Assembly: GCA_965216875.1 (NCBI GenBank)
Contig: OZ244207.1
Coordinates: forward strand, 2,656,001 to 2,720,000
Length of the DNA: 64,000 nt
Reading direction: 5' to 3'
Origin: Rubripirellula sp.
GTDB taxonomy: Bacteria > Planctomycetota > Planctomycetia > Pirellulales > Pirellulaceae
Shown: piece by piece, positions 21,248 through 59,746 of the stretch
How positions within the stretch are numbered: the first letter of the stretch is position 1
Layout: the number at the start of each line of letters is the position of its first letter
The notes under the pieces: generated by a model
Told to the model about the DNA's origin: nothing
The model's database searches: none
Seen by the model: the letters and a program-made list of their open reading frames with translations, nothing else
Made by a program: the position numbers and the translations under genes

Positions 21248-21322
21248 GGTGGCTGTAGCTCAGTTGGTTAGAGCGTCGGATTGTGGTTCCGAAAGTCGGG
21301 GGTTCGAATCCCCTCAGCCACC
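21248..21322 (+). tRNA. tRNA-His(GTG), prophage integration site
   Basis: Cloverleaf with G-1, acceptor GTGGCTG/CAGCCAC, anticodon arm TCGGA-TTGTGGT-TCCGA, GTTCGAATC T-loop, C73. Confidence 0.95.
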
Positions 21323-21326
21323 CTTG
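21278..21326 (+). repeat. attL core (49 bp, 3' part of tRNA-His)
   Basis: GGATTGTGG...CAGCCACCCTTG identical to 59607-59655. Confidence 0.95.
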
Positions 21327-21354: not shown

Positions 21355-22560
21355 CTAGGCAGCTGCCAGCTGGTCACAAACTTGGTCACAAAGAATCGGC
21401 CCCAGATCCAGGCTCGGGGCCGACTCCCAAGCTTCTCGAATGGCGATCGCTGCAGCATCGGCATTCGAACCGACGTAGTATTTCATCGTCGTCTGAATCG
21501 ATTGGTGGCGCATCAGATGTTGAAGAATGGGCGGCATCACACGACTCGCCCAACGCTGTGCAAACGAGCGTCGCAGGTCGTGCGCGGTGGCATATTCACC
21601 AGCGGCCGTGATCACTCCTGCCGCCTCTCCCGCGTTTCCGAATTTTCTGCCAACCGCGTTGCTTGTCTGGTAGCGCCCTCTCAACCCCCTCGGGTTGAAA
21701 TACCATCCATCGACAGGCCTCGACCTTCGGAGGAACTCTGCGAAATCCGGCGTAATAGCGACCATTTGGTCCTTTCGATTCTTCTGCGAATTCAAGAACA
21801 TGATCGCGGGTCTATCAGAATCAAGATTCACAGGCCGGTGACAATCAGCGTTTGTAGCGTGCAATTGCATTGCCTCGCTGATCCGAAGCCCACTGAGCCA
21901 AAGCCCCTGGGCCATGTGCTGCCAACTTTCGACGTGATCAGCAATTTGCTTGTCATCAGAGAAGCTGGCGATGATCGCCTTAAACTCTACTTCCGTGATC
22001 GGACGCCCTCGCATTTCGCCGGACTCTTCAACGGCCCTTCCACGCCCCCTCGGCGTCGGGATCGTTGCCATCAGCCCAATACCTGCCGCCCAGGAAAGAC
22101 CAGACCTGAGCGTCGCCATTGCGCTGTCGACGGTATTTGGCTTGTTGCCCTTATCGAACAGTCTCTGCTCAACAGCTTCGAGCAACTCTGCAGTAACGTC
22201 ATCGAGCAGGGGCGTTTCAATTCCTCTCGCCTCAAATTCAGCGTCAACTTGGGCAACCACACCGGTCCACTTGTAGCGGTTGGATTTGGACGTGTGCCGC
22301 AGATAGCTCTTGGTGTACCTGGTTGTAAACGCATCCCAGCTCGTGCCCCTGGTCGGTTTGCGTTTCATGGGCTTGTCGATCGGATCCCCACCGTTGAGCC
22401 TTTCTTCAATCACGCCCGCCTCTCGGTATGCGGCCGATCGAGTCGATGCAGACGCTCGTTTTTGTCTCCGCCTGCCGGTTCTGGGGTCATCCCAACGCAA
22501 AACAAATCCACCTCTGTCTTTGCGTGCAGAAACCCAGACCCGAATTGGGTCGTCGTTCAT
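21355..22560 (-). CDS. int: Phage integrase (tyrosine recombinase)
   Basis: SGLRISE, HDLRRSFA, LMRH.SIQTTMKYY; adjacent to attL. Confidence 0.93.
   Translation of the reverse strand: MNDDPIRVWVSARKDRGGFVLRWDDPRTGRRRQKRASASTRSAAYREAGVIEERLNGGDPIDKPMKRKPTRGTSWDAFTTRYTKSYLRHTSKSNRYKWTGVVAQVDAEFEARGIETPLLDDVTAELLEAVEQRLFDKGNKPNTVDSAMATLRSGLSWAAGIGLMATIPTPRGRGRAVEESGEMRGRPITEVEFKAIIASFSDDKQIADHVESWQHMAQGLWLSGLRISEAMQLHATNADCHRPVNLDSDRPAIMFLNSQKNRKDQMVAITPDFAEFLRRSRPVDGWYFNPRGLRGRYQTSNAVGRKFGNAGEAAGVITAAGEYATAHDLRRSFAQRWASRVMPPILQHLMRHQSIQTTMKYYVGSNADAAAIAIREAWESAPSLDLGPILCDQVCDQLAAA
21371..21392 (+). promoter_or_regulatory. Putative integrase arm-type sites (2x TGGTCACAAA, 12-bp period)
   Basis: Same tandem motif with same spacing recurs near attR at 59486-59507. 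Confidence 0.7.
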
Positions 22561-25503: not shown

Positions 25504-25920
25504 CTAGCCGTCGCCGCGAAAAAGAGGTTGATCATGGCCTGTTTCGGGTCGCCCGATGACTGCGCGAATGCCATATCTGCCATTGAGTCGGCAAATATCT
25601 TTATCTTCGCTAATGATGTAGTCTGCGAGGTAATGATCTGCCGTCGAAACGACCAACGCGTCAGGTATTTTGAGCGTGAGGTCATCATTCTTTGCACGAC
25701 GACGCAGTTCCCCCGCTTCCATTGCAACGGGGACAGTCACGTCGAGTTGCTCGATCTCTGGCCGGTCAAGCATAGCTCGAAAATCGTGCAAATCGTCGCT
25801 GGGGCTGCATGCTATCTCTGCTGCGACAATCGCCGGAACGAGTAGAATTGCCTCACCTTTATCTACGCGTCGAACCCACCCACATATATGATAGCCCAAG
25901 TCTGCGTCAAGGTAGGTCAT
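25504..25920 (-). CDS. PIN-domain (VapC-like) ribonuclease, N-terminus possibly truncated
   Basis: VPAIVAAEI, A..AG.LR, KIPDALVVSTA, IISEDKD acidic PIN motifs. Confidence 0.7.
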   Translation of the reverse strand: MTYLDADLGYHICGWVRRVDKGEAILLVPAIVAAEIACSPSDDLHDFRAMLDRPEIEQLDVTVPVAMEAGELRRRAKNDDLTLKIPDALVVSTADHYLADYIISEDKDICRLNGRYGIRAVIGRPETGHDQPLFRGDG

Positions 25921-26024
25921 CGCAGGTACTTTTTCGCCCCTGATGGGCCAGGGGCCTACGGGAACACCCGAGCAAGTTCGCACACTTGCTTGCATGCTGC
26001 AGGCTCAAAAAAAGAGATACGCGA

Positions 26025-51434: not shown

Positions 51435-51560
51435 AATTCAATTCCTCCTGATCGAACTCTTCGATAAGTGGTGCGACTTTGAACAAGTGGATCAATACCA
51501 CCGCGCACACCACGTGACACCAAATGATCCCGACGCAAGTCAAAAACCCAGTCAACACGA

Positions 51561-51863
51561 TCAAACCTCGTGACTAAATGGATTGTGCGCGTAGCGAAAG
51601 AACGCCGACTTATGTGCGGAGTCCCAGTGATTCAGCGCTGCAACGACGTTGAACGTGTTGCCGTCTTCAACGAGATCGCAAACGAAACAGCGCGCGTAGA
51701 TCGCGGCCGGCTCCGTCGTTTCGAACGCCTTCAGCTCTTCAATGCTGAACGGCCGTTGCACGCGATCCTTATCGCAGAACGCTGCAAGCGTTGGAAACCG
51801 GCTGATCAGGTCGAACACTCTCGAATCGAACAGACTGATCGGCTCGCGTTTTTCTTCTTTCAT
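51561..51863 (-). CDS. Hypothetical protein
   Basis: GAGG SD, coupled in early operon. Confidence 0.6.
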   Translation of the reverse strand: MKEEKREPISLFDSRVFDLISRFPTLAAFCDKDRVQRPFSIEELKAFETTEPAAIYARCFVCDLVEDGNTFNVVAALNHWDSAHKSAFFRYAHNPFSHEV

Positions 51864-51865
51864 GG

Positions 51866-52078
51866 CTACCTCGCTCCCATTTCGTCTGCGATGCGAATCG
51901 AATCACTCAGCAGCCGCTCGAGAGCAGCTGCGTCGTCGGTTGTGAGCGTGACCGCTCCTGTGATCGCACTAAGCGCGATCGCACGGGCCAAGTGATCGCG
52001 AAGCTGGCGAGCTTCCTCGAGCTGGCTGGTATGTCCGCGACTGACTCGCGAATAGGTTTGTTCAACAACTGCGTTCAT
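51866..52078 (-). CDS. Hypothetical protein
   Basis: ATGA overlap with parB. Confidence 0.55.
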   Translation of the reverse strand: MNAVVEQTYSRVSRGHTSQLEEARQLRDHLARAIALSAITGAVTLTTDDAAALERLLSDSIRIADEMGAR

Positions 52079-53841
52079 CTTGCCCTACGCTTTTTGGTGG
52101 TTCGCTTTTTCTTTGGCTTCAACACGTCGGGAACGGGAAGCGGTTTCTTTTCGGTGTGAGCTGCGACGATCGATTCGACCTTCGCACGCTTCGTTTTGGC
52201 GTGCGAAACGTCGACGCTCCATTGTTTTGCCAGGTCGTCGAGCTGATCGTTTGTGTGAAAACGAACGTATTCGGCGACGAGCGAAGATTCGCCTTCATTG
52301 GCGATCTCTGCCCAATGGCCGCTCAGTGAGCAATCGGCAAACTTGAGCATCGTGTCGATATCGCTATCGTTGCCGCTCCATTGAACGCTCGACGCAAGAT
52401 CAGAGGGCGGTATTGGCGTGACGCGTTCCGGCATTTCGCGAGCGATCGAGCCGCATGGCCAGCAGGTTGCCTGGTTCCAAACGAGAACACGCCAAAGCCG
52501 GTCGACCACGGTGTACCCGTGCGGGACGCTGGCCGTGTTGGAAAGTGCGCCGAGGTGATCGGATCCATTCACGAAGGTGTCGTCGCTTGCCGCGATCATT
52601 CCGCCGAGTAGATCGAATGACCGCGGGTTGCCCGTAATGCCGAGCGTTTCAAGTGCCGCCTCGATCCACACCTCGCGATCGCGAGTCTGGCAGAGCCACC
52701 AAGCAAGGCTCGTCAAAATGACGGGGTGCATTGCTGGAGTCTGGCGTGCCAGGCATGAGCGCCGAAAACGCCGCGCCCAGATCTCGCTTCGTTTTGCGAG
52801 TTGCTTTTTGGCCTCTGCCTTTTTGCGTCGCTCCTCGGCTGCGGCCTCTTTGCCGGTAAGAGGCTTGCCGGATTTCGATTGCGATGTGCTCGACGCGTAG
52901 GCACTCTTTTTGACCAAGTGCGTCTCGTTCAATGAGTCGAAGAGCTCAGTGTTTTGAGCGACTTCGATCATGGCTCCGTCTTTTCCAAGTGGTAGCTCGA
53001 CGATCTGCAGACTTGCTCGAGTCTTGTCGTCTAGCTCGAATTTCCTCTTGGCCGGTTTGAACGAGTAGCCGGGTCTATAGGTTGTCTTGCCGTCAACCGG
53101 ACGCACGTCATTGTCGAGGTCCAGACTAAAGAATCCGCTGGGATTGTCGATCATGTCCCGCAGTGCCCAGCTGTCCTCGGCGAGCGCCTCGGCCCACTCG
53201 TCGACGATCACGGTCGCCTCAGCAAACGGCACGACGTAGCGAGCTGCTCGAGCCGGCACGGTCCCATCGGCGACGAGCTTTCGCATCGACTCGGGAAGCT
53301 TCAAGAGTCGCAGCGTGTTTTTCACCCCGCTTTCGCTTTCGAGTCCAAGCATGCGACCGGCCTCTGCGCGATCGATTCCCTCATCGATCATTCGCTCGAG
53401 CAGCTCGGCCCGCTCGATTGGGTTAAGGCCCTTACGCTCTGCGTTGCCGAGAAGTACATCACGCAAGGCCTCAGCGTCGCTGCACTCAACCACCTCGCAG
53501 CGGGCCGGCCGTTTCAGTTGACGCAGTGCTGCAGAGCGACGGTGGCCGCTTAGCACCTGGTACTTTCGCTCGGCAAGTTTGCGAACGCGAATCACTTCGC
53601 GTTGACCAAACTCTTTGATCAATGCGACCAGATCACGAATCGCTTCACGCTTGACGCGTTCCTTTGGGTTGGCCGGATGATCGCTCAACTGTGCGATCGG
53701 GATCTCGATAACCGTGTCGCTTCGATCGATCGTTTCCGCGGAAACCTTTTGCCGCGGTGTCTTACTCGCAGCGGCCGACGCACGCTGCAGGGCAGATCGC
53801 TTTTTGCGTGCCCTTCGGTCTGCTGTCGCTGTTGCAGTCAC
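52075..53841 (-). CDS. parB: ParB/RepB/Spo0J-family protein with long C-terminal extension
   Basis: P.NP, YQVLSGHRR (GxRR), N..R..LNPIE.A, HTH, LRLLKLP. Confidence 0.88.
   Translation of the reverse strand: MTATATADRRARKKRSALQRASAAASKTPRQKVSAETIDRSDTVIEIPIAQLSDHPANPKERVKREAIRDLVALIKEFGQREVIRVRKLAERKYQVLSGHRRSAALRQLKRPARCEVVECSDAEALRDVLLGNAERKGLNPIERAELLERMIDEGIDRAEAGRMLGLESESGVKNTLRLLKLPESMRKLVADGTVPARAARYVVPFAEATVIVDEWAEALAEDSWALRDMIDNPSGFFSLDLDNDVRPVDGKTTYRPGYSFKPAKRKFELDDKTRASLQIVELPLGKDGAMIEVAQNTELFDSLNETHLVKKSAYASSTSQSKSGKPLTGKEAAAEERRKKAEAKKQLAKRSEIWARRFRRSCLARQTPAMHPVILTSLAWWLCQTRDREVWIEAALETLGITGNPRSFDLLGGMIAASDDTFVNGSDHLGALSNTASVPHGYTVVDRLWRVLVWNQATCWPCGSIAREMPERVTPIPPSDLASSVQWSGNDSDIDTMLKFADCSLSGHWAEIANEGESSLVAEYVRFHTNDQLDDLAKQWSVDVSHAKTKRAKVESIVAAHTEKKPLPVPDVLKPKKKRTTKKRRAR
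53732..53745. promoter_or_regulatory. parS-like palindrome inside 5' end of parB
   Basis: GTTTCCGCGGAAAC. Confidence 0.7.
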
Positions 53842-54056
53842 GGGAGTAGAAACCTCAGATCAACGGGTGTATTTGGCGGTGGCAATTGCTCGAACAGTTC
53901 ACGTTGGAACTGAGAGCTGTCGTTGTCTTTGTGCACTGCGATGCGGTGCACGAACACCTCGCATTCTGTGCCTTCAGCCGTGACGCCTTTCCATCGCCGG
54001 CAGTGCACGCCGTCGATGATTGCGATGTCGGCCGTCGATTCAATCTGAACCTGCAT
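53838..54056 (-). CDS. Hypothetical phage protein
   Basis: 72 aa, GAGGTG SD, coupled to parB. Confidence 0.65.
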   Translation of the reverse strand: MQVQIESTADIAIIDGVHCRRWKGVTAEGTECEVFVHRIAVHKDNDSSQFQRELFEQLPPPNTPVDLRFLLP

Positions 54057-55155
54057 GAATCACCTCTTGGTTGGCAGAAAGCAGGCGATCGCCAGCCTCA
54101 CTGATCATTCGATCGAGCTCGGTGCGTGCCTGCGGTAGATACTTCAAGACACGACGCAATTCGCGCCGGCGCAACGTGTGAACGAAGACACCGACGCGGC
54201 TGCGTCTGACTTCACGATCGGGCATCTTTGCCGCGTAAGTCGCCACGGCCATCACCGTGATCAAGTGCGCCTCCGTGGAACCAGTCACGACCGGTTCAGG
54301 TGCACTCAACTGACGACGAAACCAAAGCACCATGGCCTTTGAGGAGCCGAGGTGTTCGTTCGTCAGCGCGGCAAACGCCCCCCTTATCAGCTCGCCTGCC
54401 GGCAGTGGATCGACCGAGCGAGTCAGCGACTCGGGGATCTCCGGCTGTGCGAGCAAGTAGTCGGGCAGTCCATCTCCCAAGAAAACCGGACCCTTCCCGG
54501 CTCCGGATACGGTGTCGGCCTCGGCTCCGGAGCTGCCGTGCGAACGTTCGTCCGCGGGGCGGACGCGCTCCGGTACCGGTACCGAGTCAGTTGTTAGAGA
54601 GTTAGATATATAAGAGGGAATCCGCGGGGCATACGAATCCGTCCGCCCCGCGGACGGTTCTGTGTGCGGGGCATACAGTGAGCTGTCTTCCCCGCGGACA
54701 GACTCGTCCGTGCGGCGGACGGTTCGCCTCCTTTTTCCCTTCGATCGATTGCCCAAGTAGGCCTGCTCGATCATCTGCTTTGTGAGTGCCGTCGGCTCTT
54801 CGCCAGCAACCCACCTAACGAGGCCTTCAACATCGATCACCAGCTGACCGAACTGGCCACGAATCGCACCGGCTTCGTGAGCCATTTTGAGGACCTTGTA
54901 ACAGCTCGATCGACCACACCAAAGTTGCTTGGCCCATTCGTCGACAGACCACTCAACAGGATCCAGGCCGTCTGGATAGGAGCGGGACGTTGAAAGCCTT
55001 GCAACGGCTCGGATCATCTCCTGCAGCTGCAGAGAGAGCTTGTTGTTTGCCACCGCGGCAATTTCATGGCTCACCTGCATCACATAAGTGATCAGCTTGT
55101 CGCGGTTCTGTTCAATCGCCGCGACTTGGTTGATTAGATCGAGCTGCCTTGTCAT
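54040..55155 (-). CDS. Putative replication initiator (wHTH, iteron-containing)
   Basis: WS..EWA..L..GRSS....L wHTH; internal iterons plus AT-rich tract. Confidence 0.6.
   Translation of the reverse strand: MTRQLDLINQVAAIEQNRDKLITYVMQVSHEIAAVANNKLSLQLQEMIRAVARLSTSRSYPDGLDPVEWSVDEWAKQLWCGRSSCYKVLKMAHEAGAIRGQFGQLVIDVEGLVRWVAGEEPTALTKQMIEQAYLGNRSKGKRRRTVRRTDESVRGEDSSLYAPHTEPSAGRTDSYAPRIPSYISNSLTTDSVPVPERVRPADERSHGSSGAEADTVSGAGKGPVFLGDGLPDYLLAQPEIPESLTRSVDPLPAGELIRGAFAALTNEHLGSSKAMVLWFRRQLSAPEPVVTGSTEAHLITVMAVATYAAKMPDREVRRSRVGVFVHTLRRRELRRVLKYLPQARTELDRMISEAGDRLLSANQEVIHAGSD
54550..54720. repeat. Iteron array / putative phage origin
   Basis: About 6 copies of a GTCCGCGGGGC(GG/AT)AC-like motif in both orientations around AT-rich GTTAGATATATAAG. 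Confidence 0.6.
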
Positions 55156-55194
55156 CGTTGCCTCCTTGCGCTACCCATCGCGAATGCCAGCTGT

Positions 55195-55473
55195 TCATTC
55201 ATCGCAGCTGATCTCCTCTTCGATTTCGTTGGCAAATCGAACGAGCTCGCAGTAGGTCTCGATCCTTATGTATTTGCCCTCCTTCATCGGCCAGCGCACT
55301 TCGAGCCGTTGGCGCATGAAGCCGCAAATCGCCTTCACCAGACGGCGTTTGTACTCTTCATGCTCACGACGATAGCGACGTCGCTGCCCGAACCACTCAA
55401 CGAAAGCAGCAACGATCGTGAACAACAATGCTGCGATCCAGATTGACCGCTCGATCCATTCGAGGTCGTGCAT
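55195..55473 (-). CDS. Hypothetical membrane protein
   Basis: GGAGG SD, one TM. Confidence 0.6.
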   Translation of the reverse strand: MHDLEWIERSIWIAALLFTIVAAFVEWFGQRRRYRREHEEYKRRLVKAICGFMRQRLEVRWPMKEGKYIRIETYCELVRFANEIEEEISCDE

Positions 55474-55475
55474 CG

Positions 55476-56060
55476 TTACACCTCCACCAACGGGACGCGA
55501 ACCTTCTTTGAGTAGTCAGGGGTGAAGTAGTGGACCGCGCACTTCTCATTGAAGGCGTCGACGTGCTTCATCAGCTTGTCGACTTCGGTCTTTGATGGCC
55601 AATCGACGTCCTCGTAGGTGTCGTCGAGCATGCACTCAATCGCTTGATCGAGGTCGAGTCCCTTCACGTGGTGTTCGCAGGTGTGGACGAACACAGGCTG
55701 CTCGATCGTTTCACCATCCTTGATGGCCCAGTAGATCGCATCGGCCACGTCATCAAGATCGTCGTAGTACCCATCACGACCGCCCGGTGCCAATTCGCTG
55801 TAGAGCATGCCGGTTGGTTCTTCGACCTCTTCGGCTTCCTCAAGCCACTGCTCGGATTGAGCTCGTCTCTGCTCGCTCCACTGTCGCTGCAGGCATTCTT
55901 GGCAGAGGGTGTGACCGGGCTTCTTTTCCTTTCCGCACTCAACACAACTAAGGCAGCATCGCCCAGCGACGTCTTTATCTCTGTGGACGCGCAAGCAACT
56001 GGAACATGCCCAGCCGTGCACGGGCGAGCCGCATGGGAGTCGTAACTGCATTGGCGTCAT
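55476..56060 (-). CDS. Hypothetical Zn-finger protein
   Basis: Several CxxC pairs. Confidence 0.65.
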   Translation of the reverse strand: MTPMQLRLPCGSPVHGWACSSCLRVHRDKDVAGRCCLSCVECGKEKKPGHTLCQECLQRQWSEQRRAQSEQWLEEAEEVEEPTGMLYSELAPGGRDGYYDDLDDVADAIYWAIKDGETIEQPVFVHTCEHHVKGLDLDQAIECMLDDTYEDVDWPSKTEVDKLMKHVDAFNEKCAVHYFTPDYSKKVRVPLVEV

Positions 56061-56063
56061 TGG

Positions 56064-56498
56064 TTAGACCTCATCTTCGAGGGTGATATCGCTCGGGTGG
56101 ACATTCAATTTCTGACCAGCAAAACGCGGAGCGTCGTCGTCAAAGAGGACGTCGAAATTTGCACTCGCGTTGTGGCCGACAATGATGCCGTGACTTCGAC
56201 CAACGATGACGCGTTGGCCACACTTGAGCGTTGGCATTCCGCGGTAGGCTGCGGTTCGCTGAAAGCCCTCGGGCGTGTGACAGCGTCCGACGCATCGAAC
56301 GCGTAGGTCTGTGAAGCGATAATCCCAACCAGCGTCGAGCAGATCGTTCAAGAACTCAGCTTTGGCTTTGCCCGCGGTTCGCGCGTTGATCGTCTTTCGA
56401 AACTCGGGTCGATCAGCGACCCAAACGTGATAGGCAAAACACTGGTTGAACGGTGTCGTTTTGCACGCTTCGACGATTCTCGACATTGCATCAGCCAT
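56064..56498 (-). CDS. Hypothetical phage protein
   Basis: Coupled ORF in early operon. Confidence 0.65.
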   Translation of the reverse strand: MADAMSRIVEACKTTPFNQCFAYHVWVADRPEFRKTINARTAGKAKAEFLNDLLDAGWDYRFTDLRVRCVGRCHTPEGFQRTAAYRGMPTLKCGQRVIVGRSHGIIVGHNASANFDVLFDDDAPRFAGQKLNVHPSDITLEDEV

Positions 56499-56835
56499 TC
56501 CAACACCCCGATCTCGCGTCGAACGATCTAAGCTGCGACTTCAACTTCTTGAGACGCTGACGATTTGCCCACGTGTTACCAAGCGTCTTGACGCATGCTG
56601 TCACCAGCTCAAGTGACTGCTCGAGCGATCGCTGCTTTGCGTCCGCAGCCTGTTGAACAACTGAGGGACGATGAAAGGAAACGATGCAGCCTCGGGGCAC
56701 CTTCGCGACGAAAGTGTTTTTGTTTTCGTCCGCGTAGATCGTCGCGATGTAGTCTCGCGAGCTGTCCCACACGATGTATGCACCGCGCGGGTACTCGGCG
56801 ACGACTCCGGTTTCGGTCACGATGTAAGCGGCCAT
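56491..56835 (-). CDS. Hypothetical phage protein
   Basis: Coupled ORF in early operon. Confidence 0.6.
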   Translation of the reverse strand: MAAYIVTETGVVAEYPRGAYIVWDSSRDYIATIYADENKNTFVAKVPRGCIVSFHRPSVVQQAADAKQRSLEQSLELVTACVKTLGNTWANRQRLKKLKSQLRSFDARSGCWNG

Positions 56836-56839
56836 TCAC

Positions 56840-58591
56840 TCACCCAAACTCAAAGAAGGTCTGTGTTTGCCCAGAGGGGGCGGTTTGAAATTGCGCGGGC
56901 ACTTGCACAAGCGGAGCCGCCTCGATCAGTGACGGCTCGGCTCGCATGTAATGGGCGTCGTTGACGTCGCGCGCAGCATGACCGAGAACCCAGCGGCCGA
57001 GGTCCTCACCCATCCCCGCACGCGTCCAACGAATGTTGGCGGTCGATCGAAGATGTTGTCGCCTAACATGCTCGAGGCCTGCTTGTGAGACGATCTTGGA
57101 CCACTCGTCGCGAAACCGATGCCCTTTGCTGTCCGTCCATTGAAAGAGGTTGCCACCGCGGCGACGAAGCAGCTCGTCGACGTGGATCCGGACGCATGGC
57201 GGAAGCGGCACGATCAAACGCGATCGCTTTTTGCGTTTCGTCTTGGTTGGCTGATAGATGAGCCAACCGTGATCGCTCGATCGGACACTGCGAGCCACTG
57301 GCGATTCAGGCTGCAGCCGAAAGTTGTCGGCCGACAACGTCGCGCAGTCGTTTACCCGTGGACCAAGCACCGAGCCGATCACCAGGAAGGTGCGCCACTG
57401 CAGTTGGGGCACCTCGCTTGGCCAGGCTGCCACCTCGCACGCGTCGTAGATGCGGCCGATCTGCTCATCGGTGACGTCCGCCGGCCCGCCGGCATCTTCG
57501 TCGCCGAGCTGCTCGACCAGGTCGCTTAGAGGCGACATGGCCGGCACGCGTGGAAGCAAGCAGAGTGCGGACGGGTTGCCCGATTCACGGGGACCAACCT
57601 TTCGCAGAATTGCTCTGATCTTCTTCCACTGCTTGCCGGCCGAGTCGATCGACAATTGCGCCCCATTGTCCGCCATTAACCAGACGCCGAACTCATTCAG
57701 GATCGAGTCCGAAATCTGAGAAACTGGGAGGGTTGCGGCGGTTTGCTGGGGCAAAGTTTGCGCGCGAGTACTTCTAGTACTCGCGCGCTGCTCAAGGAAT
57801 CGTTCCCAGTGATCAAGCGCTGTGAAGTACTGCGTTGTCGTAGATCTCGCCCTTGCGCGAAAGATGAGAGGGTGCAAGTGTTCGAGGAAACAATCACGTA
57901 GCGTGATGTCCATCGGATCGGACTCGTCGCCCGGGTCATACATTCGAAGTGCGGCGGTCACGTTGGGATCCTCCCAGCTCGAGGCAATCGCGTCGGATGC
58001 TGGGACCATCCAACTAAACAGAAACAACAGTGCTGCCGCGCGGGTGAGAGCTTGCAGACGCTTGATTGCGTCGCGTCGATCAGATTGCCTGTTGGTTTCG
58101 CTGATAGCGACCGAGACGCGAGATTCGCTGACTTTGAGTTGCTTGCCGACGTCTTTCATCGAGTGGCCTTCGCACCGCAATAGGATTGCCCGAACTGCCA
58201 ACGATTCGGTTGCACACTTCCGCTTCAGTTCTTCCCATTCGATTGCGCCAAGATCATCGTGGCTATCTTCGATCTGAACGCAGTGCCTACCGTTCTCGTC
58301 AACCATTGAGTCGAGAGACCCAGCGAAGTCATCGACCCGTCTCGGCTTGCCGTGTCGCGTATCGTGTCCGTGCTTTCTCCAGAGATCCTTCGCTCGCAGT
58401 GGCAATACGCGCCAGATGTACGTTTTCCATTGAGCTTTGTCGGGGTCGAATCGCAATGCCAACCGCCAAACCTCCATCCTTAGTTCTTGCTCGATGTCGT
58501 GGATATCCAGGGCACCGATCTTCCGCGCTCGCGAGGCCAAGGTCAGCACGCACTTTTCAGCCTGCGCCAACAACTCGTCGACGTCGTTCAT
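56840..58591 (-). CDS. Sigma-70-like factor / tyrosine recombinase fusion protein
   Basis: N-term region 2 (RFDPDK.QWKTY...RAKD.WR), SLD, region 4 (SMKDVGKQLKVSESRVS); C-term LGPR, TKT, QHLRST, LGH, HY. Confidence 0.8.
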   Translation of the reverse strand: MNDVDELLAQAEKCVLTLASRARKIGALDIHDIEQELRMEVWRLALRFDPDKAQWKTYIWRVLPLRAKDLWRKHGHDTRHGKPRRVDDFAGSLDSMVDENGRHCVQIEDSHDDLGAIEWEELKRKCATESLAVRAILLRCEGHSMKDVGKQLKVSESRVSVAISETNRQSDRRDAIKRLQALTRAAALLFLFSWMVPASDAIASSWEDPNVTAALRMYDPGDESDPMDITLRDCFLEHLHPLIFRARARSTTTQYFTALDHWERFLEQRASTRSTRAQTLPQQTAATLPVSQISDSILNEFGVWLMADNGAQLSIDSAGKQWKKIRAILRKVGPRESGNPSALCLLPRVPAMSPLSDLVEQLGDEDAGGPADVTDEQIGRIYDACEVAAWPSEVPQLQWRTFLVIGSVLGPRVNDCATLSADNFRLQPESPVARSVRSSDHGWLIYQPTKTKRKKRSRLIVPLPPCVRIHVDELLRRRGGNLFQWTDSKGHRFRDEWSKIVSQAGLEHVRRQHLRSTANIRWTRAGMGEDLGRWVLGHAARDVNDAHYMRAEPSLIEAAPLVQVPAQFQTAPSGQTQTFFEFG

Positions 58592-58866
58592 CGCTTGGCA
58601 CCTCGCAGAACGGCCGAAACGATCGCCTTTGCCTCGGCCGGGTTTCCGTGGAAACGATCGCCAAGCGCTTCGACGATCTCCGCTGCGACTTTGTCGACGT
58701 GGTTACTCGCCGCGTTCACGCCGATCGGCTGATTTCCACGCGATCGCAATACCAGCACGTTCTTTGGGGCAAATACCCCAATCCGTGCTCGGTCGAAAAA
58801 GAGCACTCTTGTATCGTGTCCGATATGAACGAAATGGCCGGCCTGACCCGTAAGGCGTAACATCAT
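58588..58866 (-). CDS. CsrA-like RNA-binding protein with helical extension
   Basis: ML.LT...G..V.IG.D..V......RIG..AP..V.V.R; AAGGAG SD. Confidence 0.65.
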   Translation of the reverse strand: MMLRLTGQAGHFVHIGHDTRVLFFDRARIGVFAPKNVLVLRSRGNQPIGVNAASNHVDKVAAEIVEALGDRFHGNPAEAKAIVSAVLRGAKR

Positions 58867-58940
58867 CTCTCCTTGATGGGCCGCCGGCCGCTCACTCCTG
58901 CGGGGCACTAGCAGGAGCGAGCAAGCCGGAGGCTACGCGG

Positions 58941-59192
58941 TTAGAAATACTGCGTGACACCTTCCATTGATGGCCGGCGTCGGTTCCGTTTGGTTGCTGG
59001 AGCAGGTGTTCTCCGCTCCATAAACCGTTCGATCTCTTTTCGATCGATCCTGTACCGGGCGACTTTCTTTCCGCGCCCAACGTTGCTCGCTTTCAGAGAG
59101 CGATCCATGATCAATGCGCGAACGTGGTCAACGCTCATGCCCATGATCAAAGCTGCTTCCTTCGGCGTGACATACCTCTTTGATTCCAACAT
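58941..59192 (-). CDS. xis: Excisionase-family HTH (HTH_17)
   Basis: YVTPKEAA..MGMS...V..LI....LKA......YRI....IERF; next to attR. Confidence 0.8.
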   Translation of the reverse strand: MLESKRYVTPKEAALIMGMSVDHVRALIMDRSLKASNVGRGKKVARYRIDRKEIERFMERRTPAPATKRNRRRPSMEGVTQYF

Positions 59193-59207
59193 CACCTGTC
59201 TCCCAAT

Positions 59208-59252
59208 AAAAAAGACCGACAGCCTGCGATGCGACGCGCAAGCTGCCGGTCT
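59208..59252 (-). terminator. Leader terminator directly upstream of xis
   Basis: GACCGGCAGCTTGCG-loop-CGCAGGCTGTCGGTC + T-run; G-U pairs fit minus strand. Confidence 0.6.
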
Positions 59253-59485
59253 CTCGGTCGAGGTGACCAATGCTGGAATTGTGTGTCGCATTTCGGCGTG
59301 AATCCTAGGCCTGAAAAGGACTCACGCAACAAGCTTTTCAACGATCAAAAACGGATTGTGCTGACACAGCACTAGCACGACATTGAAACAGCATTCGCAC
59401 GACAGAAAAACTAATTTGCCAGAACCCAGATTGGGTCAAGCCGGATGAACTAGCAACGATTGGAGCCGGTGAACTCAACTGGAGT

Positions 59486-59507
59486 TGGTCACACTCCTGG
59501 TCACAAA
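59486..59507 (+). promoter_or_regulatory. Putative integrase arm-type sites (2x TGGTCACA)
   Basis: Matches tandem at 21371-21392 with same 12-bp period. Confidence 0.7.
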
Positions 59508-59606
59508 ACCGACATTGAATCGTTAACAACGACGCGCAGTACGAATCGCAAAAACAGCTGGCGCTTTGAAACGACATCGCCAGCGCATCGCCACGACAAA
59601 GCAGCT

Positions 59607-59655
59607 GGATTGTGGTTCCGAAAGTCGGGGGTTCGAATCCCCTCAGCCACCCTTG
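59607..59655 (+). repeat. attR core (duplicated 3' part of tRNA-His)
   Basis: 49-bp identity to 21278-21326. Confidence 0.95.
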
Positions 59656-59668
59656 GATTTACCTAATT

Positions 59669-59699
59669 CCGCCCATTCACCCGAGTGGGCGGTTTTTTT
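59669..59699 (+). terminator. Displaced native tRNA-His terminator
   Basis: CCGCCCATTC-accc-GAGTGGGCGG + T7 just after attR. Confidence 0.8.
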
Positions 59700-59746
59700 A
59701 TGCGCCGCGCTGATCTTCTGAAAACGCGGCGCGGCTGTTCACTCGG

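What the first reader, a model, noticed from the sequence alone, without database searches (positions are those of the whole stretch)
56840..58591. Single-ORF fusion of a sigma-70-like factor and a tyrosine recombinase
Seen: one uninterrupted 583-codon ORF. Residues ~1-185 carry sigma-70 region 2, SLD and a FliA/WhiG-like region 4 HTH. A hydrophobic linker (AAALLFLFSWM) follows, then a core-binding and catalytic recombinase domain with R (GPR), K (TKT), a variant HxLR (QHLR), H (LGH) and Y (HY). The phage already has a separate att-linked integrase. Established: both domains normally occur as separate proteins, and I know of no characterised fusion. Inference: a protein that couples promoter recognition to DNA rearrangement (inversion, dimer resolution or excision), or a recombinase-fold domain repurposed to target a phage sigma to late promoters. 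It lies third in the early operon after xis and csrA.
Basis: partly seen in the sequence, partly recalled or inferred. Interest (0 to 1): 0.88.

Follow-up and report, generated by a model that had tools for sequence, protein, structure and literature searches.

The report
Phage sigma factor fused to recombinase
A prophage in a planctomycete genome carries one intact gene that joins a small RNA-polymerase sigma factor to a second, non-integrating tyrosine recombinase; related phages keep these as separate neighbouring genes, so the fusion is real and so far unique, but nothing yet shows that it works in a new way.

Summary
Window 56840..58591 (-) is one uninterrupted 583-codon ORF, third gene of the attR-proximal early operon of a 38.3-kb tRNA-His prophage. 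Contigs of two runs reproduce it with 0 differences.

Residues 1-185 are a complete small FliA/WhiG-like sigma (sigma2 + sigma4). It ends where ~190-aa stand-alone homologues end. Residues 213-583 are a divergent tyrosine recombinase with a confident fold model, and R412, K450, R515, H538 and Y548 are conserved across 83 relatives. A weakly hydrophobic segment (185-203) joins the two halves.

No other listed protein among 1.84 billion cluster representatives combines both halves. The recombinase family is an accessory recombinase of planctomycete phages. It occurs alone, with an N-terminal membrane-anchor-like segment, or fused to CsrA. In two related elements a recombinase and a small sigma sit in the same gene cluster as separate genes.

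The ORF is therefore a lineage-specific fusion of operon neighbours in a fusion-prone module. A strong ribosome-binding site (GGGAGGA) lies 8 nt before in-frame GTG codon 211, where short homologues start, so free recombinase is probably made as well.

Coupling of promoter recognition to recombination, or membrane tethering of the sigma, is not excluded and not supported.

The parts
56840..58591 (-). Whole 583-codon ORF (P0001), sigma-recombinase fusion; stop codon at 56840-56842
   Evidence: Single copy in the 8.26-Mb genome. Identical in independent contigs.
58037..58591 (-). Residues 1-185: complete small sigma-70-family factor (sigma2 + sigma4, FliA/WhiG-like, no region 3)
   Evidence: Pfam, NCBIfam and PHROG hits. 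The 23-sequence family profile matches FliA with E 1.9e-13 and WhiG with E 4.4e-12 in PDB. AF2 pLDDT 85.4. The top Foldseek hits are all sigma factors, but the best E is only 7.5e-3. Most stand-alone homologues of ~180-200 aa end within a few residues of the RLxxL motif, which corresponds to residue ~183 here; seven rows carry longer C-terminal tails.
57983..58039 (-). Residues 185-203: hydrophobic junction segment AAALLFLFSWMVPASDAIA
   Evidence: Kyte-Doolittle 19-residue mean is 1.62, weaker than most in the family, where most anchored relatives score 1.8-2.8. AF2 pLDDT is below 50 with no secondary structure. The layout matches the N-terminal hydrophobic segments of relatives L018 and P0031.
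57959..57975 (-). Candidate internal ribosome-binding site GGGAGGA (57975-57969) and in-frame GTG codon 211 (57961-57959)
   Evidence: GGAGG occurs only twice in the ORF, and GGGAGG 6 times in the 38-kb prophage strand. By my comparison with the ORF table, at least 5 of the 26 GGAGG sites precede accepted gene starts. Codon 211 aligns with the start Met of short homologues and with the internal Met of the L018 protein.
56843..57955 (-). Residues 213-583: divergent tyrosine recombinase (core-binding plus catalytic domain)
   Evidence: Family alignments A1 and A4. Profile match to lambda Int, Tn1549 Int, XerD and XerA. AF2 pLDDT 87.8, pTM 0.82. Foldseek hits XerH, Tn1549 Int, lambda Int, Cre, IntI and Flp.
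57356..57358 (-). Codon of Arg412 (GPR, Arg-I)
   Evidence: Nearly invariant in 83 sequences. Aligns to lambda Int GQRVGDL.
57242..57244 (-). Codon of Lys450 (TKTK)
   Evidence: Invariant in 83 sequences.
57047..57049 (-). Codon of Arg515 (HLR, Arg-II). The canonical His-II position (residue 512) is Gln here and varies across the family.
   Evidence: Invariant R. Aligns to lambda Int HELR. Variability at position 512 was read from alignments A1 and A2.
56978..56980 (-). Codon of His538 (LGH)
   Evidence: Nearly invariant. Aligns to lambda Int LLGH.
56948..56950 (-). Codon of Tyr548 (HY), the putative nucleophile
   Evidence: Invariant in 83 sequences.
58588..58908 (-). Upstream CsrA-like gene. 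Its stop overlaps the fusion's ATG (ATGA). The likely true start is ATG 58866, preceded by AAGGAGA.
   Evidence: Pfam CsrA E 7e-4, below the cut-off. Sequence read.
58941..59291 (-). xis-like HTH_17 gene, first of the operon. The likely true start is ATG 59192, preceded by GGGAGA.
   Evidence: Pfam HTH_17 E 3.2e-10. Sequence read.
59607..59655 (.). attR: 49-nt exact repeat of the tRNA-His 3' end (attL at 21278-21326)
   Evidence: family D5; tRNA-His at 21249-21323.
21355..22560 (-). Canonical att-linked integrase at the other prophage end
   Evidence: PF00589 E 1.4e-10. Only distantly related to the fused recombinase family: hhalign probability 92.6%, 12% identity.

Best explanation
The ORF is a genuine, lineage-specific in-frame fusion of two early-operon genes of a temperate planctomycete phage.

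The N-terminal 185 residues are a complete small FliA/WhiG-like sigma factor. I infer that it redirects host RNA polymerase to phage promoters.

Residues 213-583 are the phage group's accessory tyrosine recombinase, which is distinct from the att-linked integrase. I infer that it performs site-specific recombination on phage DNA, for example multimer resolution or an excision-linked step. Its target site was not found.

Both halves keep every residue that is invariant in their families, so each most likely still does what the separate proteins do in relatives.

The fusion arose in a gene module whose tightly packed genes fuse often. I infer that free recombinase is also made from internal GTG codon 211, which has its own strong ribosome-binding site. 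The main consequence of the fusion would then be that the sigma always carries a recombinase domain. No new coupled mechanism is shown.
For: The ORF is real and error-free.

The sigma half is complete. It aligns end to end with stand-alone ~190-aa homologues, and it contains all 9 invariant columns of the 23-sequence family by construction of the alignment. The family profile matches FliA and WhiG in both region 2 and region 4.

The recombinase half has a confident fold, a profile match to lambda Int, and conserved R412/K450/R515/H538/Y548 in 83 sequences.

Relatives are split. All 10 close homologues match only residues ~210-583. None of the 20 recombinase-type proteins scanned has a sigma domain.

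The same kinds of gene sit close together elsewhere. L025 carries CsrA, a canonical PF00589 recombinase that the query's C-terminal half did not match in tblastn, a small hydrophobic ORF, a small ORF and a sigma. L005 (Bremerella cremea) carries HTH_17, a recombinase, a CsrA-like ORF (by eye), two ORFs and a sigma.

The module is fusion-prone. CsrA is fused to the recombinase in P0101 (Pfam E 5.6e-9) and P0005 (BLASTP E 4e-6). Sigma homologues carry other C-terminal extensions in P0076, P0104, P0115, P0128 and P0154.

The related provirus L018 also has one PF00589 integrase at one end and the CsrA-recombinase module at the other end.

Against: There is only one example, so selection for the fusion cannot be shown.

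No expression data exist. No RNA run holds the locus, which says nothing either way.

No recombination site or invertible segment was found in the prophage, and no sigma-dependent promoter motif was identified (one search gave nothing above chance).

P0001 alone fails Pfam PF00589, and it falls below the TIGR02937 and Sigma70_r4 cut-offs.

The canonical His-II position is Gln.

The internal start rests on one motif. The other GGAGG in the ORF (58475) also precedes an in-frame TTG and is probably chance.

If the hydrophobic segment spans the membrane, as its counterparts in relatives appear to, the two halves would lie on opposite sides, and this reading would be wrong for the full-length protein.
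Confidence: 0.55

Rival explanations
1. Recent, neutral or mildly harmful accident. The sigma gene lost its stop and ran into the recombinase gene. The recombinase is made mainly from the internal GTG 211, and the sigma works despite, or is impaired by, the 400-residue tail. The fusion has no adaptive role.
For: It is a singleton among 1.84e9 representatives. Fusions of neighbours are frequent and patchy in this module. A strong internal ribosome-binding site sits exactly where short homologues start. The sigma homology ends at the natural C-terminus of stand-alone forms.
Against: The prophage looks intact: exact 49-nt att repeats and a full set of morphogenesis genes. Both halves keep the family-invariant residues. 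C-terminal extensions on sigma homologues are tolerated elsewhere.
Confidence: 0.2
2. Membrane-tethered sigma. The hydrophobic segment is a transmembrane helix, so the sigma domain sits on the cytoplasmic face and the recombinase-like domain outside. The sigma would be held or released as in sigma/anti-sigma fusions. The CsrA-TM-recombinase proteins would be the same design with a different regulator.
For: Seventeen of the 27 family members scored carry a hydrophobic segment N-terminal to the recombinase domain, with a Kyte-Doolittle 19-residue mean of 1.4-2.8, most 1.8 or above. By eye, several are followed by Cys in lipobox-like contexts. In L018 a strong GGGAGG ribosome-binding site precedes the hydrophobic N-terminus. 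Cytoplasmic-type domains (CsrA, sigma) always lie N-terminal to that segment. By eye, a conserved DPRDYEP-like motif in the linkers argues that the linkers are translated.
Against: The segment of P0001 is among the weakest in the family (1.62, with Pro, Ser and Asp inside), and AF2 does not model it as a helix. Most of the wider family, and members 56-62% identical to the query (P0002, P0003, P0006), have no such segment. An extracytoplasmic domain that keeps the full R-K-R-H-Y set of a DNA enzyme is hard to rationalise. No transmembrane predictor was available.
Confidence: 0.12
3. Functionally coupled protein. The recombinase domain binds specific phage DNA sites and thereby aims or gates the sigma, or transcription initiation is mechanically coupled to a recombination step (inversion, resolution or excision).
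For: Rosetta-stone logic: a sigma and a recombinase recur in the same early module as separate genes in L025 and L005 and are fused here. Both DNA-interacting halves are intact.
Against: The prophage contains no candidate site with tyrosine-recombinase architecture and no invertible segment. The catalytic residues are conserved rather than degenerate, as one would expect for a purely DNA-binding repurposed fold. Co-occurrence in one early operon is expected for co-timed genes regardless of interaction.
Confidence: 0.08
4. Sequencing or assembly artefact joining two genes.
For: All relatives found are split.
Against: Contigs assembled independently from two runs at word depths 119 and 347 span the whole ORF with no difference or gap. 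A contig from another study is identical over most of the junction.
Confidence: 0.03

Closest known systems
FliA / WhiG-type (sigma-28-like) and small phage sigma factors (PHROG 1740)
   Same: Both have a sigma2 and a sigma4 domain. The family profile matches FliA with E 1.9e-13 and WhiG with E 4.4e-12, and region 4 carries the LGVSESRVSQ-type helix-turn-helix.
   Different: It is only ~185 residues with no region 3, which is the size of an ECF sigma. It is phage-borne and here continues into a 400-residue recombinase. Promoter specificity is unknown.
Tyrosine recombinases: lambda Int, Tn1549 Int, XerH/XerD/XerA, Cre
   Same: It has the two-domain core-binding plus catalytic fold and the Arg-I, Lys, Arg-II, His-III and Tyr residues.
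   Different: It is very divergent: no PF00589 hit and 11-15% identity to solved structures. The His-II position is not conserved. It is not the att-linked integrase of its phage. Many relatives carry an N-terminal membrane-anchor-like segment or a fused CsrA domain. Its substrate is unknown.
ECF sigma factors with fused C-terminal regulatory extensions (for example ECF41; reviewed as non-canonical ECFs)
   Same: The architecture is a small sigma followed by a large C-terminal domain on one polypeptide. I saw these papers only as search listings and abstracts (PMC3426412, PMC8999054). In the main text of the ECF re-classification paper PMC7826278, a term search found 0 occurrences of 'integrase' or 'recombinase'.
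   Different: From recall, the known extensions are sensor or regulatory domains (SnoaL-like, TPR, zinc-binding, transmembrane), not a DNA recombinase. No intramolecular contact is supported here.
Recombinase-controlled sigma genes (skin element / sigK)
   Same: They link site-specific recombination with sigma-factor activity in a mobile element. I saw only the listing and abstract of PMC5025042.
   Different: There the recombinase rearranges the DNA that encodes the sigma, and the proteins are separate. Here the two are one polypeptide and no rearranged substrate is seen.

Membership tests
Sigma-70 family (small sigma2+sigma4 type) | Sigma2 domain (region 2) recognisable by the family model | tested here: met
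   PF04542 scores 25 bits against a cut-off of 24, at residues 26-75. The family profile matches FliA region 2.
Sigma-70 family (small sigma2+sigma4 type) | Sigma4 domain with the region 4.2 helix-turn-helix | tested here: inconclusive
   P0001 alone scores PF04545 14.6 bits, below the 24.1 cut-off. Homologues at 33-40% identity pass it (P0051, P0104). The family profile matches FliA and WhiG region 4. AF2 models helices at 119-163 with pLDDT above 90.
Sigma-70 family (small sigma2+sigma4 type) | NCBIfam TIGR02937 (sigma70-ECF) trusted score | tested here: not met
   32.9 bits against a cut-off of 42.9, although E is 4.5e-8 over residues 5-165.
Sigma-70 family (small sigma2+sigma4 type) | Binds RNAP core and directs promoter-specific initiation | not testable with these tools
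   Needs a pull-down or in-vitro transcription.
Tyrosine recombinase / phage integrase superfamily | Catalytic-domain fold plus core-binding domain | tested here: met
   AF2 pLDDT 87.8, pTM 0.82. All 10 Foldseek PDB hits with E <= 1e-3 are tyrosine recombinases.
Tyrosine recombinase / phage integrase superfamily | Catalytic residues R-K-H-R-H/W-Y | tested here: inconclusive
   R412, K450, R515, H538 and Y548 are present and conserved in 83 sequences and mapped on lambda Int. The His-II position (512) is Gln and varies in the family. Active-site geometry could not be inspected.
Tyrosine recombinase / phage integrase superfamily | Pfam PF00589 gathering score | tested here: not met
   P0001 has no PF00589 hit at E <= 10. 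P0005 scores 20.4 bits, below 27.1. Distant family members P0097, P0122 and P0150 pass.
Tyrosine recombinase / phage integrase superfamily | Cognate recombination site and strand-exchange activity | tested here: inconclusive
   No inverted-repeat pair with recombinase-site architecture was found in the prophage. Activity is not testable here.
ECF sigma factors with fused regulatory extension | C-terminal extension that contacts and regulates sigma2/sigma4 | not tested
   No test of an intramolecular contact gave a result. The one folding job is listed under Tried and rejected.
Membrane-tethered sigma (sigma / anti-sigma-type fusions) | A transmembrane helix between the sigma domain and an extracytoplasmic domain | tested here: inconclusive
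   The hydropathy mean is 1.62 over 19 residues, borderline and weaker than most anchored relatives. AF2 confidence is low there. No dedicated predictor was available.

The most novel reading that the evidence does not exclude
The recurring design 'cytoplasmic regulator (sigma here, CsrA in P0101 and P0005) - hydrophobic anchor - tyrosine-recombinase domain' is a previously undescribed phage switch. The early regulator would be held at the membrane, or on specific phage DNA, by a recombinase-fold domain. It would be released or activated in step with a recombination or envelope event, so that one polypeptide couples the choice of transcription programme to a DNA or membrane transaction.
Probability: 0.12. 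Interest if true: 0.85.

Novelty: new variant of a known kind. Interest (0 to 1): 0.55.

Why it matters
Sigma factors and tyrosine recombinases are both thoroughly studied, and I found no description of them on one polypeptide. If the full-length protein is active, it is a natural test of how much C-terminal load a sigma can carry on RNA polymerase, and of whether a recombinase can be delivered to promoters.

The wider result may matter more. Planctomycete phages carry a second, very divergent tyrosine recombinase in their early module. It often has a membrane-anchor-like N-terminus and repeatedly fuses to post-transcriptional (CsrA) or transcriptional (sigma) regulators. That family has no Pfam assignment and no known role, and phage biology in this phylum is almost unexplored.

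If the fusion is only an accident of tightly packed genes, it remains a clean example of how Rosetta-stone fusions arise.

Tried and rejected
1. Complex prediction of the sigma half against the recombinase half returned 'no answer' (score 0.00, controls not run). It counts neither for nor against a contact.

2. A combined alignment of both families misplaced the sigma proteins on the recombinase domain. The halves were therefore folded separately and no full-length model exists.

3. The search for related loci with the sigma alignments A3 and A5 failed for lack of a conserved stretch. With single sigma proteins it found no close relative in viral contigs. Smaller alignments gave only distant loci, apart from L025.

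4. The sigma half found no match at E <= 1e-6 in 300 other genomes of the order. The recombinase half found only 7 of 300 at E <= 1e-5, at 27-33% identity.

5. tblastn of P0001 against 50,697 GenBank phage records gave no match.

6. No RNA holder is listed for the locus. Runs X5 and X6 hold only short pieces, some identical and some under 90% alike, and tell nothing about architecture in relatives.

7. The consensus promoter and terminator scan of 51500-59700 gave nothing above shuffles.

8. The inverted-repeat search found no invertible segment.

9. By BLASTP, the N-terminus of P0012 is not detectably similar to the window's CsrA-like protein. I do not count it as a CsrA fusion, although it looks like one by eye.

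10. The look-up of earlier findings of this scan by sequence returned nothing.

11. A mis-set coordinate for a comparison in L025 gave stop codons. Pfam on the proper ORF replaced it.
Full report
**The observation**

Window 56840..58591 on the minus strand is one open frame of 583 codons. It lies in a prophage bounded by an exact 49-nt direct repeat, at 21278-21326 and 59607-59655. The repeat is the 3' end of tRNA-His, whose gene is at 21249-21323.

The prophage carries lambda-like morphogenesis genes: terminase, portal, S49 protease, capsid, head-tail joining and tape-measure-type tail protein. A PF00589 integrase sits at 21355..22560 (-), next to the tRNA.

The ORF is the third gene of the attR-proximal operon. 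The first gene is an HTH_17 xis-like gene (E 3.2e-10). The second is a weak CsrA-like gene (E 7e-4, below the cut-off) whose stop overlaps the ORF's ATG.

Logan contigs of two runs (X1 and X4, the same sample, possibly the genome's source) span 56700-58950 with no difference and no gap. A 282-nt contig from another study is identical over 57975-58256, which covers most of the junction but stops 4 nt short of its lower edge. The gene occurs once in the 8.26-Mb genome. An assembly artefact is therefore very unlikely.

**The N-terminal half**

P0001 passes Pfam Sigma70_r2 (25 bits against a cut-off of 24). Its hits to region 4, TIGR02937 and PHROG 1740 are sub-threshold but consistent.

The exhaustive HMMER search listed 22 proteins that match only residues 2-183. 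Of these, 15 are stand-alone proteins of 155-200 aa. In the 23-sequence alignment the query covers the family from end to end. Most stand-alone members stop a few residues after the RLxxL motif, which is query residue ~183.

The family profile matches FliA (E 1.9e-13) and WhiG (E 4.4e-12), in both region 2 and region 4. AlphaFold2 gives pLDDT 85.4. The best Foldseek hits are all sigma factors, although the best E is only 7.5e-3, as expected for two loosely connected domains.

**The C-terminal half**

P0001 itself does not hit PF00589.

In an 83-sequence alignment, K450, R515 and Y548 are invariant, and R412 and H538 are nearly so. The profile matches lambda Int (E 4.9e-7), Tn1549 Int, XerD and XerA, with the Arg-I, HxxR and GH motifs in register; Tyr548 lies just beyond the printed end of that alignment.

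The AlphaFold2 model (pLDDT 87.8, pTM 0.82) has 10 PDB hits with E <= 1e-3, and all of them are tyrosine recombinases.

The canonical His-II position is Gln in the query and varies in the family, by my reading. The att-linked integrase of the same prophage is only distantly related to this family (hhalign probability 92.6%, 12% identity). This is therefore a second, accessory recombinase.

The related provirus L018 has the same layout. CheckV rates it 100% complete. It has one PF00589 match near one end and the CsrA-recombinase module near the other.

**Uniqueness**

The search covered 1.84 billion representatives and found 367 hits with E <= 1e-3. Of the best 150 listed, 127 match only within residues 197-583 and 22 only within 2-183.

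The 16 rows with two matched stretches are all 484 aa or shorter, too short to hold both halves. None of 20 recombinase-type proteins scanned with Pfam, including 15 with long N-terminal extensions, has a sigma domain.

Four literature searches found no description of such a fusion. Three were full-text searches, plus a term search in the main text of the ECF re-classification paper, which has 0 occurrences of 'integrase' or 'recombinase'. I saw listings, abstracts and matched passages only.

**The family context changes the reading**

The recombinase family comes in several forms:
- alone, at 340-390 aa
- with an N-terminal hydrophobic, anchor- or signal-like segment, often followed by a Pro-rich linker
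- with a CsrA domain fused in front of that segment (P0101, Pfam E 5.6e-9; P0005, BLASTP E 4e-6)

In L018 and in L002/L003 a CsrA or CsrA-like gene directly precedes the anchored recombinase, with overlapping stop and start codons.

Two elements carry a tyrosine recombinase and a small sigma in one cluster as separate genes:
- Metagenome contig L025: CsrA, a canonical PF00589 recombinase (E 3.5e-19; not matched by the query's C-terminal half in tblastn), a small hydrophobic ORF, a small ORF, and a sigma with regions 2 and 4.
- Bremerella cremea locus L005: HTH_17, a recombinase homologue, a CsrA-like ORF (by eye), two ORFs, and a sigma. The sigma's region 2 matches the query's sigma family at hhalign probability 96.7%.

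Sigma homologues themselves carry varied C-terminal extensions (P0076, P0104, P0115, P0128, P0154).

The window's gene is therefore a fusion of habitual operon neighbours in a module where fusions are common.

**The junction**

The hydrophobic segment (residues 185-203) scores 1.62 on a 19-residue Kyte-Doolittle mean. That is borderline and weaker than most anchored relatives, most of which score 1.8-2.8. AlphaFold2 leaves it unstructured with pLDDT below 50.

Its layout (hydrophobic run, then PAS, then about 10 residues, then TAALR) resembles the N-termini of the L018 protein and P0031.

Immediately after it, GGGAGGA lies 8 nt upstream of the in-frame GTG at codon 211 (57961). That position corresponds to the start Met of short homologues and to the internal Met of the L018 protein.

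GGAGG occurs only twice in the ORF. By my comparison with the ORF table, at least 5 of the 26 GGAGG sites on the prophage's minus strand precede accepted gene starts, so this phage uses such sites. I infer, without expression data, that a 373-residue free recombinase is made in addition to the fusion.

In L018 the equivalent strong site instead precedes the hydrophobic N-terminus, so the anchor is genuinely translated there.

**How it most likely works**

Shown:
- an intact fused ORF
- two complete, conserved domains
- relatives with the genes separate but clustered

Inferred:
- The sigma half redirects host RNA polymerase to phage promoters.
- The recombinase half, and the probable free recombinase, act on phage DNA in a role other than integration.
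- The fusion mainly enforces co-expression.

Rivals, in order of likelihood:
1. A neutral recent accident.
2. A membrane-tethered sigma with the recombinase-like domain outside the cytoplasm. This would also explain the CsrA-anchor-recombinase proteins, but it is hard to square with a conserved DNA-enzyme active site and with unanchored close relatives.
4. An artefact.

Folding the two halves as a complex gave no answer, so it is not used either way.

**Verdict**

The architecture is new, both parts are known kinds, and there is only one instance.

The accessory, often anchored recombinase family and its repeated fusion to regulators is the more general lead.

Noticed in passing
window 24274, 24829, 28647, 33150, 39617, 44972, 53732, 58642 (14-nt sites); ParB-like gene at 52075..53841 (-): The palindrome GTTTCCGCGGAAAC occurs 8 times with at most 1 mismatch, all inside the prophage; 0.01 are expected by chance. 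The extended form is CGTTTCCGCGGAAACG. All 5 exact copies in the 8.26-Mb genome lie in this 38-kb prophage. From recall, the half-sites GTTTC/GAAAC resemble chromosomal parS. The phage encodes a 588-aa ParB_N + HTH_ParB protein, so these are probably phage-specific parS-like sites.
   Followed up: partly
proteins P0101 and P0005 (and possibly P0012); loci L002, L003, L018: The accessory recombinase family often carries an N-terminal membrane-anchor- or signal-like segment, and in at least two cluster representatives a CsrA domain is fused in front of it. By eye, a conserved DPRDYEP-like motif sits in the Pro-rich linkers. The topology and role of an anchored tyrosine recombinase are unexplained.
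   Followed up: partly
protein P0115 (477 aa): A homologue of the sigma half is followed by a Pfam RNA_pol_A_CTD domain (E 6e-7) and, by eye, a C-terminal tail shared with P0076, P0104 and P0154. This is a sigma fused to an RNAP alpha-CTD-like domain.
   Followed up: no
locus L007 1115-3949 and 4001-4948: In a Planctomycetaceae MAG, a 945-aa ParB_N + HTH_ParB protein lies directly upstream of a distant homologue of the recombinase. This echoes the ParB-like gene 3 kb downstream of the fusion in the window.
   Followed up: no
window 58861-58872 and 59190-59205: The longest-ORF starts of the CsrA-like gene (GTG 58908) and the xis-like gene (ATG 59291) are probably too far upstream. AAGGAGA precedes ATG 58866, and GGGAGA precedes ATG 59192.
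   Followed up: no
window 25504..25995 (-): A PIN-domain gene (E 4.3e-10) sits in the attL-proximal accessory region of the prophage. It may be a toxin of a toxin-antitoxin pair.
   Followed up: no
runs X1 and X4 laid on window 56700-58950: The contig that carries the locus in run X1 is 38,340 nt long, almost exactly the att-to-att distance of 38,329 nt. This may only reflect the assembly graph breaking at the 49-nt att repeat, or it may reflect an excised circular form. In X4 the contig is 32,758 nt.
   Followed up: no
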